NCBI GenBank assembly: GCA_029856145.1
Contig: JAHQWK010000019.1
Coordinates: 32,001-96,000 of the forward strand
Length of the DNA stretch: 64,000 nt
Direction of reading: 5' to 3'
Origin: Promethearchaeia archaeon
Lineage (GTDB): Archaea; Asgardarchaeota; Lokiarchaeia; Sigyniarchaeales; SOKP01
Positions 23,992 through 32,370 of the stretch are shown in pieces. A model generated the notes under the pieces. It saw only the letters and a program-made list of their open reading frames with translations, did no database searches and was not told the DNA's origin. Numbering within the stretch: position 1 is the stretch's first letter; the number at the start of each line of letters is the position of its first letter. The position numbers and the translations under genes were made by a program.

Positions 23992-25668
23992 TTGTTTGAT
24001 AAAAATTATTTGGAAGAAGTCAGAGAAGAAAAAGAAAAATGGGATAAACTCTATGAAAGTTTGAAAGAGCGCGATGTAAAATTTGTTTCTGATTCTGAAA
24101 TCCCTATTAAAAACCTTTATACACCTTTAGATATAAAAGATAAAGATTATGTGAGTGATATCAGTTTTCCTGGAGTACCACCATATACGCGTGGTGTTTA
24201 CCCCTCTATGTATAGAGGAAGATTATGGACTATGCGATTATTTTCAGGTCATGGGACTCCTGAAGAAACTAATAAAAGATGGAAATTTCTCTATGAGAAT
24301 GGTGAAACTGGGTTTAGTGCTGCGGTTGATGCTTTAACCTTTAATGGGATTGATCCGACTAACAAAGATGGAGCAGCAGAAGTAGGAACGTCTGGAGTTC
24401 CTCTCTATTGTATTGATAGTCTTTTTGCTCTGACTGAAGATATTCCGATCGATAAAATTAGCGTAGCTTTAGTAGTAGAACCTTTCACAACCGCTCCTGT
24501 GTGTTCTATGTATTTTAATATGGCGCAAATGCGGGGGTATGATTTAAAACAATTGATGGGAACAACTCAAAATGATATCTTAACTATGACGGTAGGATAT
24601 ATTCCATATAAAAATAGTCCTCCTAACCATATACTTCGCTTAGCATGTGATTTCATTGAATGGACAGTAGCTATGAAAAATGTACCCAAATGGCATCCAA
24701 TAAATTTCACAGGATATAATTATAGAGAAGGAGGAATTGATGCCGTACAGGAATTAGGTTTTGTATTTGCGAGTGCATGTTCTCATATTGATAATTTAAT
24801 TGAAAGAGGATGGAAAGCGGATGATTTTGTTGGTCGTTTAGCATTTCACTTGTCGGCACATAAAGATTTTTTTGAAGAAATTGCAAAATTTAGAGCAGCA
24901 AGGAGAATTTGGTATAAATTAATGAAAGATAAGTATGAAGTCAAAGATCCAAGGAATCTGGGTTTTCGATTTCACGTTCAAACTGCAGGATCTTCTTTAA
25001 CAGCACAATCACCTAAAGTAAATATTGTAAGAACAGCAATCCAAGCATTAGAAGCGAATTTAGGTGGCTGTCAATCATTACACACTAATTCTTATGATGA
25101 AGCTATTTGTTTACCCTCAGAAGAAGCAGTATTGATCGCCTTGAGAACCCAACAGGTGATCTCAGATGAAACTAAAATCCATAATACTATAGACCCTTTT
25201 GCTGGGTCCTATTTTATTGAATGGTTAACAGATGAAGTTGAAGATAGAGTATGGAAATATATAGATAAAATTCAAAAAGCAGGCACTATTGATAAGACTC
25301 TATCATCAGGATTCTTATATAAAGAAATGAGAGATGCTTTTCATAAAAGAAGAATGCGTATGGAATCTGGCGATGAAATTATGTTAGGGGTTAATAAATA
25401 TCCCGTGCCATATGATACGGTGACTGATGTATTTAGAACTAATGAAGAAGCAATAAATATTGAAATTAGTCGAATTGAGAAATTAAAAGCTCGAAGAGAT
25501 AATGCAAAATTAGAGAAAATTTTAGATAAACTACGAAATGTTTGTGAAAAAGAAGAAAATGTAATGCCAATAATTATGGAAGCTACAAAAGAAGGAGCTA
25601 CTGTTGGGGAAGTATGTAATATCTATAGAGAAATATGGGGAACTTGGGATCCTCCATTAGCAATCTAA
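23992..25668 (+). CDS. Adenosylcobalamin-dependent acyl-CoA mutase, large (substrate-binding) subunit
   Basis: PG.PPYTRG.YP.MYRGRLWTMR, TQNDIL, FFEEIAKFRAARRIW, SLHTNSYDEA, ALRTQQ. Confidence 0.95.
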   Translation: MFDKNYLEEVREEKEKWDKLYESLKERDVKFVSDSEIPIKNLYTPLDIKDKDYVSDISFPGVPPYTRGVYPSMYRGRLWTMRLFSGHGTPEETNKRWKFLYENGETGFSAAVDALTFNGIDPTNKDGAAEVGTSGVPLYCIDSLFALTEDIPIDKISVALVVEPFTTAPVCSMYFNMAQMRGYDLKQLMGTTQNDILTMTVGYIPYKNSPPNHILRLACDFIEWTVAMKNVPKWHPINFTGYNYREGGIDAVQELGFVFASACSHIDNLIERGWKADDFVGRLAFHLSAHKDFFEEIAKFRAARRIWYKLMKDKYEVKDPRNLGFRFHVQTAGSSLTAQSPKVNIVRTAIQALEANLGGCQSLHTNSYDEAICLPSEEAVLIALRTQQVISDETKIHNTIDPFAGSYFIEWLTDEVEDRVWKYIDKIQKAGTIDKTLSSGFLYKEMRDAFHKRRMRMESGDEIMLGVNKYPVPYDTVTDVFRTNEEAINIEISRIEKLKARRDNAKLEKILDKLRNVCEKEENVMPIIMEATKEGATVGEVCNIYREIWGTWDPPLAI

Positions 25669-25685
25669 ATATTGAGGTGATAAAT

Positions 25686-26116
25686 ATGAGTGAGAAAAAA
25701 ATTAGAGTTTTGATGTCCAAGCCCGGCATAGATTTATTCTAAACTTATTAGGATATAATGCATACGGGCATTGGCGTGGTGGAATCGTAGTTTCAAGAGC
25801 TATTAGGGATGCTGGGATGGAGCTTATTTTCGGAGGATTTCAAAATGTAGAACAAATTGTTGAATCTGCAATTCAAGAAGACGTTGACGTTATAGGACTA
25901 AGTATTCATTCTGGTGCTCATTTTGCTTACACGCAGCAGGTTATTGATCTATTGAAAGAACGTGGAGTACTTGACGATGTTATGATACTTGTTGGCGGAA
26001 TAGTTCCTGCAAAGGACTTTCCTAAATTAAAAGAGATGGGGGTTGCAAACATCTATGGACCTGGAAGTATGACCTCAGATATCGTAGAGTTTATTAAAAC
26101 ACATGTCAAAAAATAA
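25686..26116 (+). CDS. Acyl-CoA mutase small (cobalamin-binding) subunit; two exons 25686-25731 and 25764-26116, 132 aa after splicing
   Basis: GAGGTGA RBS then MSEKKIRVLMSKPGID|GHWRGGIVVSRAIRDAGMELIF...EDVDVIGLSIHSGAH...VGGIVP; the frame is continuous only after removing 32 nt. Confidence 0.9.
25732..25763 (+). other. 32-nt bulge-helix-bulge (EndA-type) intron in a protein-coding gene
   Basis: Exon stem GCCCG 25721-25/CGGGC 25765-69; 4-bp helix GCAT 25726-29/ATGC 25758-61; 3-nt bulges AGA 25730-32 and ATA 25762-64; intron hairpin 25733-42/25748-57; contains in-frame TAA 25740-42. Confidence 0.88.
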
Positions 26117-26131
26117 AGGAGATAACTCGCA

Positions 26132-26174
26132 TCGGATATTGTCGATTTTATTAAACCTTATGTTAAAAAAATAA
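26132..26174 (+). pseudogene. Diverged second copy of the 3' end of the mutase small-subunit gene
   Basis: TCG GAT ATT GTC GAT TTT ATT AAA CCT TAT GTT AAA AAA (SDIVDFIKPYVKK) versus 26075-26113 TCA GAT ATC GTA GAG TTT ATT AAA ACA CAT GTC AAA AAA (SDIVEFIKTHVKK). Confidence 0.75.
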
Positions 26175-27811: not shown

Positions 27812-28300
27812 TTGGTGGCAGCTATAAATCAAATCGACCCCATAAAAAAGAACGATTTAAACATAAGAGCTGAGAATTTAATTAAAGATACAAAGATTCT
27901 CAACATTGCTAGATTGGCTAAAATGTTAGTTGATTTATATGGGCAAGTTGAGCCCTTTAAAAAGATAGGAAAACTTGAGGGTAAAGAAATTGAATTATAT
28001 TTAAAAGAATTAGATGGATATATAACATTTATCCTAACATCTGATAAGAACAATTTTACCTGTCATGCAGAGAAAGCTATAGATCCTGTCGCAAGAATTA
28101 TTATAAATGTTAAAGAAGAGAAAATCCTTAATGTGATAAGTAATATAATTCGTTCTAAGAGCAATATTTTTGGGTTAGCAAAACTTTTAAAATATATCAT
28201 TCCAGGAAAAGCTAAAATAAAAGGATCTTATGTTGCCGCTATTAAATTGATAAGATGTTTAATGATAGGTAAACATGAAATGTATAAAAAGAGTAAATGA
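27812..28300 (+). CDS. Hypothetical protein, possibly SCP2 lipid-binding fold
   Basis: C-terminal GKAKIKGS...AIKL resembles the SCP2 G.L.I.GD motif; lies in the acyl-CoA cluster. Confidence 0.5.
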   Translation: MVAAINQIDPIKKNDLNIRAENLIKDTKILNIARLAKMLVDLYGQVEPFKKIGKLEGKEIELYLKELDGYITFILTSDKNNFTCHAEKAIDPVARIIINVKEEKILNVISNIIRSKSNIFGLAKLLKYIIPGKAKIKGSYVAAIKLIRCLMIGKHEMYKKSK

Positions 28301-29463
28301 GGTGTTATTTTATAAGTTTAAATAGTGATCCTTTTTTATCAATCTCCAATTCTATAAAAAATTCCTCTATTGATGAGTGGCAAAAAGAAGGCAGAAAAGT
28401 AGTAGGTTTTTATTGCACATATATCCCAGAAGAACTGCTTCATGCTGCAGATTTATTACCTTTCAGAATCAGAGCAACTGGTAATAAAGATACTGATCTG
28501 GGCGATATATATATGGTTAGATTCACTTGCTCCTTTGTTAGAGCGACTTTAGACATGGCTCTAAAGGGAGTATACGATTTTCTAGACGGATTTTTAGTTT
28601 GTAATAGCTGTGATCACAGTCGTAGAATGTATGAACTGTTTGATCTTAAAGTATTTAATCGTGAAAACTTTCACAAGAAAGTTCATAGATTTTATTTGGC
28701 GATACCTCATGTTATAACTAACGAGGGATTTGAATGGTATAAAACAGAAATCGAAGAACTTAAAGAAGAGTTAGAGCTTAAATTTAACATAAAAGAGATA
28801 ACAAAGGAGAAATTAAAGAAAGCAATTGAAGTATATAATGAAAATAGAAGACTTCTGCGAGAGATACATGAATTAAGGATCCAAAATAATCCTAAACTTA
28901 CGGGTACTGAAGCGTTACAAATAAATATGGCAAATTCTTCAATTCCGAAAGATCTTGCTAATGAAGAATTAAAAAGACTTAAGAATATCCTAATTCAACG
29001 CGAAGGTATTCATATAAAAGATAAAAAACGGATTCTTTTAGTAGGTAGTGTTGTGGATAACATTGAATTTACAGAATTGATAGAAAATTCAGGAGCTTTT
29101 ATAGCTTCAGACATTTTATGTTTTGGAACTCGGAATTTCATGGATGATGTACAACTAGAAAATAATAAAAGCCCTATAGAAAACATCTCTAAACGTTTAT
29201 ATTATAGACTATCATGTCCACGGATGATGGATGATCATGAAAGGCGATTAGATTTTCTCAAAAAAGAGATTAAAAGAGCAAATATTGAGGGAGTCATTTT
29301 ACAAAGAATAAACAATTGCGATCTACATGGGTGCGATAATATGCTCTTTACGCATGAATTAAAGGATTTAGAAATCCCTGTTCTAAACATGGACAGAGAA
29401 TTCTATCAAGCAGATACATCTCGCTTACAAACACGAATAGAAGCATTCTTAGAAATGATATAA
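28297..29463 (+). CDS. 2-hydroxyacyl-CoA dehydratase subunit (HgdB/FldC-like)
   Basis: VGFYCTYIPEEL.HAA, CSFVR, NSCD..RR, CFGTR, SCPR, CDLHG, TRIEAFLEM; true start may be ATA 28312. Confidence 0.9.
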   Translation: MRCYFISLNSDPFLSISNSIKNSSIDEWQKEGRKVVGFYCTYIPEELLHAADLLPFRIRATGNKDTDLGDIYMVRFTCSFVRATLDMALKGVYDFLDGFLVCNSCDHSRRMYELFDLKVFNRENFHKKVHRFYLAIPHVITNEGFEWYKTEIEELKEELELKFNIKEITKEKLKKAIEVYNENRRLLREIHELRIQNNPKLTGTEALQINMANSSIPKDLANEELKRLKNILIQREGIHIKDKKRILLVGSVVDNIEFTELIENSGAFIASDILCFGTRNFMDDVQLENNKSPIENISKRLYYRLSCPRMMDDHERRLDFLKKEIKRANIEGVILQRINNCDLHGCDNMLFTHELKDLEIPVLNMDREFYQADTSRLQTRIEAFLEMI

Positions 29464-29490
29464 AATCAAAATATAATAGGTAATAGAATA

Positions 29491-30777
29491 GTGAATAAAC
29501 TAGAAATGCTAAATAGAATAATTCCATATAGAATGTTGTATGAAGCGGTTACATCTACTTATGGATTAGTTGAAGGCATACTCCCAGATAGTGGAATACC
29601 TTCATTAAGAATTGGATTAAAACATTTAAAATCAGTGATGGAAGAATATATCCAAAAAGCTAGAGAAGGATTACCTATAATTGGACACCATTTTTCTTTT
29701 CCTACAGAGTATCTTTCTTGTTTCGAATGTGTCCCCGTTTGCATTGAAGCTGTTTCATATTTATTAGCAGCATTGTTACCACACGGTTCCGAACCATATT
29801 ATGATTTAATCACTAATTGGGGTCATCCCTTTCATACATGTACCTCACAAAAAGGTACAATGGGAATGACTTTAGATGATTTATTTAAATTTGATGCTAT
29901 AATAACTCCAACAGCTCCGTGTGATAATACTTATGCATCATATCCGTTTTTCTCTTATTATAAAAAAATCCCACTGATCGCACCTGACTTACCTTTTTTG
30001 AAAGAGGAAAAGAGTTATCATTATCATGGTGAACAAATTCATCTGGGATTAGAAGCGTTAGGTAAAGTTATTAATCAAAAACCTAATTATAATAAATTAA
30101 GAAAATCAATTGAAATAGAAAACCAAGTTTCTAAGATACAATTGGAAATTTTCGATTTAAAAAAGGCAAAACCATGTCCAGTAGAGAATATGTTTAATGT
30201 AATGTCGGCTGCCGCATCAATTTACTTCTCTGGGCGTAATGAAAAATTAAGTTTTTATAATGATATGCTAGAAATTGCACAAAATCGGTATAAGAATAGT
30301 AAACATCATGCTGGAGAAGAAAAAATTAGGAGTATTTGGCCATATATGGTTATATTTTTTGATTTAGAACTTGGAGAATGGTTAGATCGCCATCTAGGAA
30401 TGTCCATTCTATTTGATATTTTTAATTATAATTTTGCTGAACCAATTAATACGAAATCAGATTTAGATACTATGCTTTATGGAATGGCAAAAAAATCAAT
30501 GGAAGCTCCTATGGTTAAGCAATCTGCAGAGTTTTACTATTCATTTATAGATGATTGTGTTCAATTTGCAAAAGATTATTCCGCTGATTGTTTTATCTTT
30601 ACATCACATATAGGTTGCAAGCAATTTGGAAGTGTTCCTCAGATTTTAAGAGAAGCTTTAAGAGATGAAGTTGGCATACCAATGCTCCTAATTGATGTGG
30701 ATGTAGGCGATGCCCGATTTGCTTCTGAGAAAATTATAAGAGAAAAAATTAAAATGTTTGCTCAAACTCTAATGTAA
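29491..30777 (+). CDS. 2-hydroxyacyl-CoA dehydratase subunit (HgdA/FldB-like)
   Basis: CTSQK, APCD, HIGCK, GIPML.ID.D..D. Confidence 0.85.
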   Translation: MNKLEMLNRIIPYRMLYEAVTSTYGLVEGILPDSGIPSLRIGLKHLKSVMEEYIQKAREGLPIIGHHFSFPTEYLSCFECVPVCIEAVSYLLAALLPHGSEPYYDLITNWGHPFHTCTSQKGTMGMTLDDLFKFDAIITPTAPCDNTYASYPFFSYYKKIPLIAPDLPFLKEEKSYHYHGEQIHLGLEALGKVINQKPNYNKLRKSIEIENQVSKIQLEIFDLKKAKPCPVENMFNVMSAAASIYFSGRNEKLSFYNDMLEIAQNRYKNSKHHAGEEKIRSIWPYMVIFFDLELGEWLDRHLGMSILFDIFNYNFAEPINTKSDLDTMLYGMAKKSMEAPMVKQSAEFYYSFIDDCVQFAKDYSADCFIFTSHIGCKQFGSVPQILREALRDEVGIPMLLIDVDVGDARFASEKIIREKIKMFAQTLM

Positions 30778-30894
30778 AATTTATTAAAATTTCTCTGTAA
30801 TTTTAAACTATTATACGAAAACGCTTTAATATCATTAAGTCAATATTTTTAAATATTATCTTATAATTAAAATACTTAAAAGGGCAAATTTAAA

Positions 30895-32370
30895 ATGAAT
30901 AATAGCAGTATTGTAGCAGAATTAGGAAAAATTGTTGGAGATCGATATGTATCTGAAGAACCAGAAATACAATTTTTATACCATTATGATTTTATAACCG
31001 CAGAACCAGAAGGCAAATGTGATATTGCTATAATGCCTGAAACTGCTGAAGAAGTCCAAGAAATTGTAAAAATTGCGAATAAATATAAGATTCCAATCGT
31101 TCCATGGGTTTCAGGGATTAATTTTGGCTCGATTGCTACACCTCGAAAAGGAGGTATTGTTGTAGATTTACGGCGCATGAATCGGGTGCTTGAAGTAAAT
31201 GAGGATGATATGTATGCTTTGATTGAAGGTGGGACAACATGGGCAGATTTCAAAGGATACCTAGATAAACATCATCCCAACTTTAGGGCAGGAGTAACTT
31301 TTTCCCCTCCTGGTACCGGTGTAATTCCCTCATGTTTATGTTATGGAATGTTTGATCTAGGGATGCTCGGAGGTACTGGAGCAGAATTCCTTAATGGATT
31401 AGAGGTAATTCTACCAACAGGGGAATTAATAAGAGCTGGCTCATGTAGCCTTACTGATTATTGGTACGGTAGACAGCCTTTACCAGATATTTCAGGATTA
31501 TTTATTGGATGGGAGGGCACAACTGGAATTGTAACAAAAGCAGCAATAAAAATATGGCCAAAACTCCCATATCGAACTGATTTTCTTCCTTTTGCAGCAA
31601 GAGTTGAAGATGGTGTTCCTATGTTGCTTAAATTATCAAAAGCTGGGTTAGGAATTGTAGACCTCTTAATGACAAATATGGGATGGGCTCAATCTCTTCA
31701 ATGTTTTGATCAGAAAAGTGTAGCAATAGACCCTGTATCACTTGGGCTACCTGATTTTATTGGCTTAATTACAACTGAAGCATATACAGAAGAACAGCAT
31801 AAAGCACAATGTGATGCTATAAAAAAGATATGTAGGGAGTATGGCATTGAACCCTTGACTGCTGATGTACAAGTAAGAAATTTTCCAAAAAGTATGAGGG
31901 GTGTATTGGGTCATATTTTTCCAATAACAGGAGGTCAAATGCCAATACAATTTTGGGGTTGTTGGAATTTTACTAGAGGTGGTGGAGGAGAATGGATTGG
32001 ATGTTATAATTCAACACGTAATATCATAAAATATTATGATCTATCAAGAGAGATTTGTCTTAAACATGGAAAATCACCTCAATACTATTGTAGAATTATG
32101 TTTGGGGGGCATTATTGTGTGACTAGGACAAATGTGAATTTCAATAAAAATGATCCAGAGGATATAAAAAAAACAAGGCAAATTCTAAAGGAAATTCATG
32201 ATGCTGTTCAAAAACTTGAAGGAACAATAATGTATAAACCTCCAAAATGGGTAGTTCAACACCATAAAGATAAAACCCTTCCAGAAACAAGGAATCTAAT
32301 TGAGAGAATAAAAAAATTTCTTGATCCAAATAATATTATGAATCCAGGACAGGGTATTGGAGATGATTAA
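30895..32370 (+). CDS. FAD-binding oxidoreductase (GlcD/D-lactate dehydrogenase family)
   Basis: P.TAEEVQ.IVK.AN, VDLRRMNRVLE, GLEVILPTGE, GWEGTTGIVTK, LDPNNIMNPG. Confidence 0.9.
   Translation: MNNSSIVAELGKIVGDRYVSEEPEIQFLYHYDFITAEPEGKCDIAIMPETAEEVQEIVKIANKYKIPIVPWVSGINFGSIATPRKGGIVVDLRRMNRVLEVNEDDMYALIEGGTTWADFKGYLDKHHPNFRAGVTFSPPGTGVIPSCLCYGMFDLGMLGGTGAEFLNGLEVILPTGELIRAGSCSLTDYWYGRQPLPDISGLFIGWEGTTGIVTKAAIKIWPKLPYRTDFLPFAARVEDGVPMLLKLSKAGLGIVDLLMTNMGWAQSLQCFDQKSVAIDPVSLGLPDFIGLITTEAYTEEQHKAQCDAIKKICREYGIEPLTADVQVRNFPKSMRGVLGHIFPITGGQMPIQFWGCWNFTRGGGGEWIGCYNSTRNIIKYYDLSREICLKHGKSPQYYCRIMFGGHYCVTRTNVNFNKNDPEDIKKTRQILKEIHDAVQKLEGTIMYKPPKWVVQHHKDKTLPETRNLIERIKKFLDPNNIMNPGQGIGDD

What the first reader, a model, noticed from the sequence alone, without database searches (positions are those of the whole stretch)
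25717..25774. Bulge-helix-bulge mRNA intron splitting the B12-binding motif of an acyl-CoA mutase subunit
Seen in sequence: from ATG 25686 the gene reads MSEKKIRVLMSKPGIDLF* and stops, while GHWRGGIVVSRAIRDAG continues in another frame 32 nt later. The junction folds into a textbook BHB: outer exon stem CCAAGCCCG/CGGGC(A)TTGG, central 4-bp helix GCAT(25726-29)/ATGC(25758-61), 3-nt bulges AGA(25730-32) and ATA(25762-64), and an intron hairpin TTTATTCTAA-ACTTA-TTAGGATATA. Established: archaeal splicing endonuclease EndA cuts after the second base of each bulge and RtcB ligates. Applying that rule with no adjustment removes 25732-25763 and joins G+AC into an Asp codon, giving KPGIDGHWRG (the D-x-H-x-x-G cobalamin motif) and an uninterrupted 132-aa protein. 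The flanking codons (CCC GGC, GGG) are GC-rich for this genome, as expected if selected for pairing. The well-documented archaeal mRNA intron of this kind is in crenarchaeal cbf5. Inference: one in a metabolic gene of a probable Asgard archaeon would mean tRNA-type mRNA splicing is used more widely, reminiscent of eukaryotic non-spliceosomal HAC1/XBP1 splicing, and could gate production of the B12 enzyme.
Basis: partly seen in the sequence, partly recalled or inferred. Interest (0 to 1): 0.97.

Follow-up and report, generated by a model that had tools for sequence, protein, structure and literature searches.

The report
Mobile mini-intron in Asgard B12 gene
A 32-base insert breaks the vitamin-B12-binding motif of an enzyme gene in an Asgard archaeon; it has the RNA shape that the tRNA-splicing enzyme cuts and seems to have moved between genera, so it is very probably an intron spliced out of the messenger RNA, a kind published for only one archaeal coding sequence, though splicing was not seen directly here.

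Summary
Observation confirmed. The insert at 25732-25763 forms a bulge-helix-bulge (BHB). Cutting after the second base of each bulge restores D16-G-H18-W-R-G and a 132-aa B12-binding mutase subunit.

About 105 orthologues lack the insert. It is identical in 11 other assemblies, so it is not an artefact. Two genomes of another genus carry a homologous insert whose changes spare the structure. A second, unrelated BHB insert lies 21 nt downstream in five other lineages, with a compensatory exon-intron pair. Carrier genes stay under purifying selection, and EndA (two paralogues) and RtcB are present.

Not shown: splicing itself (no usable RNA run). A regulatory gate is unsupported, because the intron is rare and patchy. 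Closest known case: the crenarchaeal cbf5 intron. This scan has already noted the same kind of intron in other Asgard genes, including genes of this genome.

The parts
23992..25668 (+). Acyl-CoA mutase large (substrate-binding) subunit, 558 aa, intact
   Evidence: PF01642 E 5.5e-163; TIGR00641 above cut-off
25674..25679 (+). Shine-Dalgarno-like GAGGTG ahead of ATG 25686
   Evidence: sequence; GAGG(TG) also precedes the start in most relatives
25686..25731 (+). Exon 1 of the B12-binding small subunit (M1-I15 plus first base of the Asp16 codon)
   Evidence: colinear with intron-less orthologues
25717..25725 (+). 5' arm of the exon-exon (outer) helix
   Evidence: 9 of 9 pairs in all three carriers; arms cofold at -14.0 kcal/mol in carriers vs mean -5.7, best -8.6 in 44 alleles without this insert
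25726..25729 (+). Exon strand of the 4-bp central helix (GCAT)
25730..25732 (+). 5' bulge AG^A, predicted cut after 25731
   Evidence: geometry shown; cut rule from PMC2738675; cleavage inferred
25732..25763 (+). 32-nt intron (phase 1, frame-shifting, in-frame TAA at 25740-42)
   Evidence: absent from 29 of 29 same-genus orthologues at this site; homologue in G187 and G189
25733..25757 (+). Intron hairpin: 10-bp stem with one U-U mismatch and one G-U pair, 5-nt loop
   Evidence: the mismatch is a U-A pair in the other two carriers
25758..25761 (+). Intron strand of the central helix (ATGC; ATGT in G187, giving a G-U pair)
25762..25764 (+). 3' bulge AT^A, predicted cut after 25763; first two bases vary between carriers, the third (exonic) is fixed
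25764..26116 (+). Exon 2 (rest of Asp16 through K132 and stop), with the His18 cobalt ligand; gene callers see only a 99-aa ORF from 25817
   Evidence: PF02310; alignment to solved B12 subunits
25765..25774 (+). 3' arm of the exon-exon helix (A25770 bulged)
25718..25768 (+). Cassette of intron plus seven consecutive rare synonymous codons (Ser11 to Gly17), identical in the exon part in all three carriers and different from each carrier's intron-less sisters
25784..25785 (+). Empty here: site of a second, unrelated 29-31-nt BHB insert (after the first base of Ile23) in other lineages
   Evidence: G032, G205, L307, L309-L313, L315
26245..27222 (+). MeaB GTPase chaperone of the mutase, intact
   Evidence: PF03308; TIGR00750 above cut-off

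Best explanation
The 32 nt are a tRNA-type (BHB) intron in the mRNA of the B12-binding subunit of an acyl-CoA mutase. Shown: the insert, its exact position, BHB geometry at the frame-restoring register, conservation of the structure, purifying selection on carrier genes, and the EndA and RtcB genes. Inferred: the transcript folds the BHB, the two-subunit EndA cuts after 25731 and 25763, RtcB joins the exons, and the full 132-aa protein is made. Unspliced RNA would give an 18-aa peptide. Splicing is probably routine rather than regulated, and the intron is a near-neutral passenger. Its patchy distribution is best explained by recombination of a cassette of about 50 nt (intron plus pairing exon codons) between lineages (my estimate 0.75 for lateral gain against ancestral presence with repeated loss). 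What starts the transfer is not shown: the intron encodes nothing.
For: (1) About 105 of 110 close orthologues are uninterrupted; 42 read at DNA level all lack an insert. (2) G187 and G189 (another genus, exon 2 72-74% identical in protein) carry a 27/32-identical insert. Variable sites are 4 of 8 unpaired against 2 of 24 paired (Fisher p 0.023, three related sequences), and both paired changes keep or improve pairing. (3) A second site in the same gene has six distinct sequences with the same bulge-4 bp-bulge geometry at the frame-restoring cut, including a G-C to A-U swap between a synonymous exon base and the intron; 87% of cells pair against 27-56% for slid partners. (4) Purifying selection: dN/dS 0.014-0.025 for this gene against sisters at dS about 1, 0.17 between G187 and G189, 0.04-0.10 among site-2 carriers; no second lesion in the carriers read; large subunit (G000, G187, G189, G032) and MeaB intact. 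(5) Two EndA paralogues and RtcB in this genome, EndA in all carrier genomes tested. (6) Three other genes of this genome (rnhB, mevalonate kinase, an FAD oxidoreductase) have 30-32-nt inserts whose only 4-pair register restores the motif. (7) For transfer: site-1 carriers are rejected as a clade (AU p 1.4e-6 and 3e-4), yet they share seven synonymous codons each found in only 2-8 of 42 intron-less alleles.
Against: No spliced RNA or cleavage was seen for this locus. Only three distinct site-1 sequences exist, with no two-sided compensatory change. The site-2 covariation does not beat the column shuffle (112 of 500), and four of six site-2 sequences have a G-G mismatch in the central helix and a weak outer helix. 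The genome has a second, canonical B12 subunit (C10) that could in principle cover for a dead gene. If the insert arrived recently, branch-wide dN/dS says little about the time since. dN/dS in the g18 carriers (0.13-0.17) is higher than in most g1 pairs.
Confidence: 0.88

Rival explanations
1. The insert is BHB-shaped but not spliced, or too poorly spliced. The gene is a young pseudogene and the other B12 subunit (C10) serves the large subunit.
For: A paralogous small subunit and three large subunits exist. Truncated or damaged copies of this gene occur in relatives (L308, G219 C17). Carriers are rare.
Against: Eight carrier lineages at two sites keep an otherwise perfect frame. Unpaired intron bases drift while paired ones and the synonymous exon stem do not. 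The same architecture sits in rnhB inside its catalytic motif.
Confidence: 0.07
2. The ribosome gets past the insert without splicing, by programmed frameshift or hopping (like T4 gene 60 or mitochondrial byps; from memory).
For: A stop codon sits in a hairpin just after the take-off point, and in this genome the exon-2 frame is open through the insert.
Against: In G187 and G189 all three frames have a stop inside the insert. No matching take-off and landing codon exists in the needed frame (GAT against TAC or CAC). A frameshift would put about ten residues between Asp16 and His18. Exon-exon pairing and 3-nt bulges have no role in hopping.
Confidence: 0.02
3. It is spliced, and splicing is a regulated switch for the B12 enzyme.
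For: The intron splits the cobalamin-binding motif, so unspliced RNA makes no enzyme.
Against: Present in 3 (site 1) and 2 (site 2) of 110 orthologues and absent from near sisters. Two unrelated introns at different sites do not suggest a conserved control element. No ligand-binding RNA family matched in the window. Conserved motifs are simply where shared cassettes can recombine, or where they get noticed.
Confidence: 0.08
4. On history only: the intron is ancestral in the family and was lost many times, rather than transferred.
For: Loss by recombination with intron-less DNA or cDNA would also swap the flanking codons. Loss of the cbf5 intron is documented (PMC2738675). An unrooted presence pattern cannot itself separate gain from loss.
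Against: It needs dozens of losses. The intron is 84% identical, and its stem shows no compensatory swaps, between genes whose bodies are only 76-77% identical in DNA, while even same-genus pairs reach dS of about 1.
Confidence: 0.22
5. Assembly artefact.
For: None found.
Against: Identical in 10 other contigs from different assemblies, and homologous in two genomes of another genus.
Confidence: 0.003

Closest known systems
cbf5 pre-mRNA intron of Desulfurococcales and Sulfolobales (Watanabe 2002; Yokobori 2009, PMC2738675)
   Same: Short (16-44 nt there, 32 here), BHB at the borders, cut between the second and third bulge base, no ORF, placed between the first and second base of a functionally critical Asp codon, host with a two-subunit EndA.
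   Different: cbf5 is one RNA-modification gene whose intron was gained once and mostly inherited vertically, with splicing shown by cDNA and in vitro cleavage. Here it is a metabolic gene in Promethearchaeota, the intron is sporadic, crosses genera with its flanking codons, has a second independent site 21 nt away, and splicing is inferred.
BHB intron in the 5' UTR of Haloferax HVO_1309 (Schwarz 2020, PMC7714728)
   Same: EndA-cut intron in an mRNA, 46 nt.
   Different: It lies outside the coding sequence; here removal is needed to restore the reading frame.
Non-canonical BHB introns of Asgard tRNA genes (PMC11291895; bioRxiv 10.64898/2026.10.13.758758)
   Same: Same motif and machinery, repeated gains, most Asgard genomes with two EndA paralogues.
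   Different: Those papers treat tRNA genes only; the preprint has no occurrence of 'mRNA' or 'cbf5'. No copy of this intron was found elsewhere in the genome, tRNA genes included.
Archaeal rRNA BHB introns with homing endonucleases and their short deletion derivatives (as discussed in PMC2738675)
   Same: BHB splicing, patchy distribution, conserved target site; co-transfer of flanking bases recalls homing.
   Different: No endonuclease ORF; no long version seen at either site among 110 orthologues.
HAC1/XBP1 non-spliceosomal mRNA splicing (own knowledge)
   Same: Protein-only cut and ligate that restores a frame; XBP1 uses RtcB.
   Different: Cut by stress-activated IRE1 at two separate stem-loops, not at a BHB by the tRNA endonuclease; regulation is not shown here.

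Membership tests
Archaeal BHB pre-mRNA intron (cbf5 type) | 4-bp central helix flanked by two 3-nt bulges and by exon and intron helices | tested here: met
Archaeal BHB pre-mRNA intron (cbf5 type) | Cut after the second base of each bulge restores the conserved reading frame | tested here: met
   132-aa protein, 98% identical to an intron-less orthologue over 114 compared residues
Archaeal BHB pre-mRNA intron (cbf5 type) | Intron-less orthologues define the same insertion point | tested here: met
Archaeal BHB pre-mRNA intron (cbf5 type) | Motif conserved while intron sequence drifts | tested here: met
   met weakly: three sequences, Fisher p 0.023, no two-sided change at this site; one two-sided change at site 2
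Archaeal BHB pre-mRNA intron (cbf5 type) | Host encodes EndA and RtcB | tested here: met
   two PF01974 genes and one PF01139 gene, no internal stops
Archaeal BHB pre-mRNA intron (cbf5 type) | Spliced mRNA exists in cells | tested here: inconclusive
   no RNA run covers the junction
Archaeal BHB pre-mRNA intron (cbf5 type) | Cleaved by EndA in vitro | not testable with these tools
   bench experiment
Homing-endonuclease BHB intron (rRNA type) | Intron-encoded DNA endonuclease | tested here: not met
   32 nt; no long allele among 110 orthologues
Group I or group II self-splicing intron | Catalytic RNA core | tested here: not met
   32 nt single hairpin; no Rfam match in the window
IRE1-type (HAC1/XBP1) regulated splicing | Signal-dependent cleavage by a dedicated nuclease | not testable with these tools
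   no expression data; patchy presence argues against
Acyl-CoA mutase B12-binding subunit (TIGR00640) | Domain score above cut-off and D-x-H-x-x-G motif | tested here: met
   intron-less orthologue scores 136.5 bits vs cut-off 57.45; motif aligns with 2yxb and 4r3u
Methylmalonyl-CoA mutase proper | Tyr and Arg carboxylate-binding residues in the large subunit | tested here: not met
   human RQYAG and QNDILKEFMVR align to RLFSG and QNDILTMTVGY; residue roles from own knowledge

The most novel reading that the evidence does not exclude
Promethearchaeota carry short, ORF-less BHB introns in ordinary protein-coding genes that are spliced by the tRNA machinery and are themselves mobile: they spread between genera as cassettes of intron plus pairing exon codons, colonising conserved motifs repeatedly (two independent sites within seven codons of this one gene). 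That would be an active mRNA-intron gain process in the prokaryotes closest to eukaryotes.
Probability: 0.62. Interest if true: 0.85.

Novelty: new variant of a known kind. Interest (0 to 1): 0.74.

Why it matters
In the papers I could search, endonuclease splicing inside an archaeal coding sequence is reported only for cbf5, plus one 5' UTR case; other cases were predicted but unconfirmed as of 2009. A spliced intron in a metabolic gene of an Asgard archaeon widens that. The patchy, cross-genus pattern makes the open question of how BHB introns arise and spread testable on a small, well-aligned gene with filled and empty alleles at two sites. In practice, gene callers record carriers as a 99-aa fragment lacking the B12 ligand, so Asgard metabolic reconstructions may be miscounting working genes as broken.

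Tried and rejected
RNA evidence: no RNA holder was listed. Two runs labelled metatranscriptomic but probably DNA (X12, X16) do not cover the junction. One contig in DNA run X7 joins 25731 to 25764; this is an intron-less relative's DNA at 85% likeness, not splicing.

Genome-wide BHB scans: two timed out and three missed the positive control, in two cases because the inner U-U mismatch or the rare codons of the exon stem failed my filters. The final scan recovers this site alone and misses the weaker rnhB, mevalonate-kinase and FAD-oxidoreductase inserts, so it is no census. Raw BHB counts do not exceed control geometries.

No viral copy of the gene, no Rfam match, no second copy of the intron in this genome or four relatives. 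A search for shorter homologues was empty. Monophyly of site-2 carriers was not rejected (AU p 0.15 and 0.085), so transfer is claimed only for site 1. The L286-L021 dN/dS row is misaligned and was ignored; residue labels are one too high. The promoter scan was uninformative.

Full report
1. Observation. Removing 25732-25763 gives a 132-aa protein reading KPGIDGHWRG; unspliced, the frame stops at TAA 25740-42. The gene lies between an intact mutase large subunit and MeaB. Homologues are named Promethearchaeota or Lokiarchaeota. Folding gives the described structure with a modest z-score of about -2. The strict BHB costs 1.0 kcal/mol over the MFE because of one U-U mismatch beside the inner closing pair. 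Of nine registers tested, only the proposed one has four central pairs. Shuffling the insert reproduces the geometry in 197 of a million trials. A genome-wide scan for frame-restoring 3-4-3 motifs returned only this site; its thresholds were adjusted until this control passed, so it shows the site stands out but is not a census.

2. Not an artefact, and a true insertion. The same 32 nt are in 10 other contigs from ENA and JGI assemblies and in two further contigs with a divergent 3' part. All 29 same-genus orthologues lack an insert at this position. Across 154 genomes of the order, 110 close orthologues were listed and five are interrupted.

3. Conservation. Among 400 Asgard genomes the site-1 insert occurs in three: this one and G187 and G189 of another genus (ABR01 and CSMAG_2237). 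The inserts differ at two loop bases, the two intronic bulge bases, one central pair (G-C to G-U) and the U-U mismatch (to U-A). Variable sites are 4 of 8 unpaired against 2 of 24 paired (p 0.023). In G187 and G189 the MFE is the textbook BHB, and all three frames are closed inside the insert, which excludes simple frameshifting there.

4. A second intron site. G032 (same genus), G205 (a third genus) and contigs L307, L309-L313 and L315 carry an unrelated 29-31-nt insert after the first base of Ile23, 21 nt downstream in spliced coordinates. All have 3-nt bulges at the frame-restoring cuts and a 7-9-pair inner stem. The central helix is GGGG with CGCC or CTCT, or GAGG with CGTC or CCTC, so a synonymous exon change is matched in the intron. 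Four of six sequences have a G-G mismatch there and the outer helix is weak, so these are relaxed motifs. The covariation does not beat the column shuffle (112 of 500), although pairing is far above slid controls.

5. Selection and machinery. The spliced gene has dN/dS 0.014-0.025 against intron-less sisters at dS about 1; carrier-to-carrier values are 0.17 (site 1) and 0.04-0.10 (site 2). No carrier that I read has a second lesion, and neighbouring genes are intact where the loci cover them. The genome has two EndA paralogues and RtcB; by recalled motif positions one paralogue has the Tyr, His and Lys catalytic residues and the other lacks the His, as in a two-subunit enzyme. Following leads from earlier notes, I confirmed 30-32-nt inserts with a 4-pair register that restores the motif in rnhB, mevalonate kinase and an FAD oxidoreductase of the same genome, and a weaker one in pyrG. 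One weakness: a second, canonical B12 subunit exists, so this gene is not demonstrably essential.

6. History. On codons downstream of both sites, this gene groups with intron-less genes of its own genus (98/80 support), while G187 and G189 group with intron-less G185 and G186 (100/98). A single clade of carriers is rejected (AU p 1.4e-6; 3e-4). Yet the carriers share seven consecutive synonymous codons (Ser11 to Gly17) that occur in only 2-8 of 42 intron-less alleles each, and the identity stops just outside the exon stem, where each gene resembles its own sisters again. G187 differs from G185 at all seven sites but is 94% identical elsewhere. The simplest reading is recombination of a cassette of about 50 nt, then retention of the paired bases. 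Gain by transfer is favoured over ancestral presence with many losses, but the direction is inferred, not shown. No endonuclease-bearing long form, viral copy or second genomic copy was found.

7. What is missing. No RNA data cover the junction, so splicing is inferred from structure, comparison and established EndA chemistry (PMC2738675). Regulation is unsupported: the intron is rare, absent from sisters, and paralleled by an unrelated one at another site.

8. Comparison. It works like, and on every testable feature belongs with, the cbf5-type BHB mRNA intron, even to splitting an Asp codon after its first base. The searchable literature reports only cbf5 and a Haloferax 5' UTR intron; recent Asgard papers cover tRNA introns only, and the library lacks most subscription journals. 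It differs in lineage, host gene class, sporadic cross-genus distribution with flanking co-transfer, and a second independent site. Earlier notes of this scan describe the same kind of intron in many other Asgard genes, some with RNA support that I did not check; none that I saw concerns this gene's intron.

9. Verdict. Real feature; spliced BHB mRNA intron with probability about 0.88; new variant of a known kind; interest 0.74.

Noticed in passing
window 23992-25668: The large subunit has an unusual pocket: RLFSGH, QNDILTMTVGY and GYN where human MCM has RQYAGF, QNDILKEFMVR and GYH; best solved match is 2-hydroxyisobutyryl-CoA mutase. The substrate is probably not methylmalonyl-CoA.
   Followed up: partly
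G000 C18:61155-61184 (+), C3:203065-203095 (+), C2:161153-161184 (+), C23 about 64794-64823 (-): 30-32-nt inserts in rnhB, mevalonate kinase, an FAD oxidoreductase and pyrG. The first three have a 4-pair BHB register that restores the motif; pyrG has three pairs.
   Followed up: partly
L314 and L317: Same intron and 5' part as the window, but divergent from 25882 and 25996 onward (51 and 22 differences): recombinant alleles or chimeric assemblies.
   Followed up: partly
L308:1062-1500: A copy of the small-subunit gene lacking its first 30 or so codons, including the DxH motif, directly after the large subunit: deletion or misassembly.
   Followed up: no
window 26075-26116 and 26132-26174: Degenerate duplicate of the last 14 codons of the small-subunit gene just downstream of it; similar secondary matches in G036 and G009.
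   Followed up: no
L287 (G201), L288 (G193), L280 (G219 C17): Variant motifs GGHFRGS and DGHYRG, and a second G219 copy whose start is out of frame.
   Followed up: no
run X12, contig ending at window 25708: A 98%-identical contig ends in a loose tail with AAG CCC G codons after ATG AGT, like a further allele of the cassette; it stops before the junction.
   Followed up: no
G000 whole genome: ARAGORN finds only 19 tRNA genes, many with introns, plus tRNA-Sec, in a 97% complete genome; multi-intron tRNAs are probably being missed.
   Followed up: no
window 28297-32370: Two 2-hydroxyacyl-CoA dehydratase subunits and an FAD-linked oxidase follow the mutase-MeaB cluster, suggesting an acyl-CoA pathway.
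   Followed up: no
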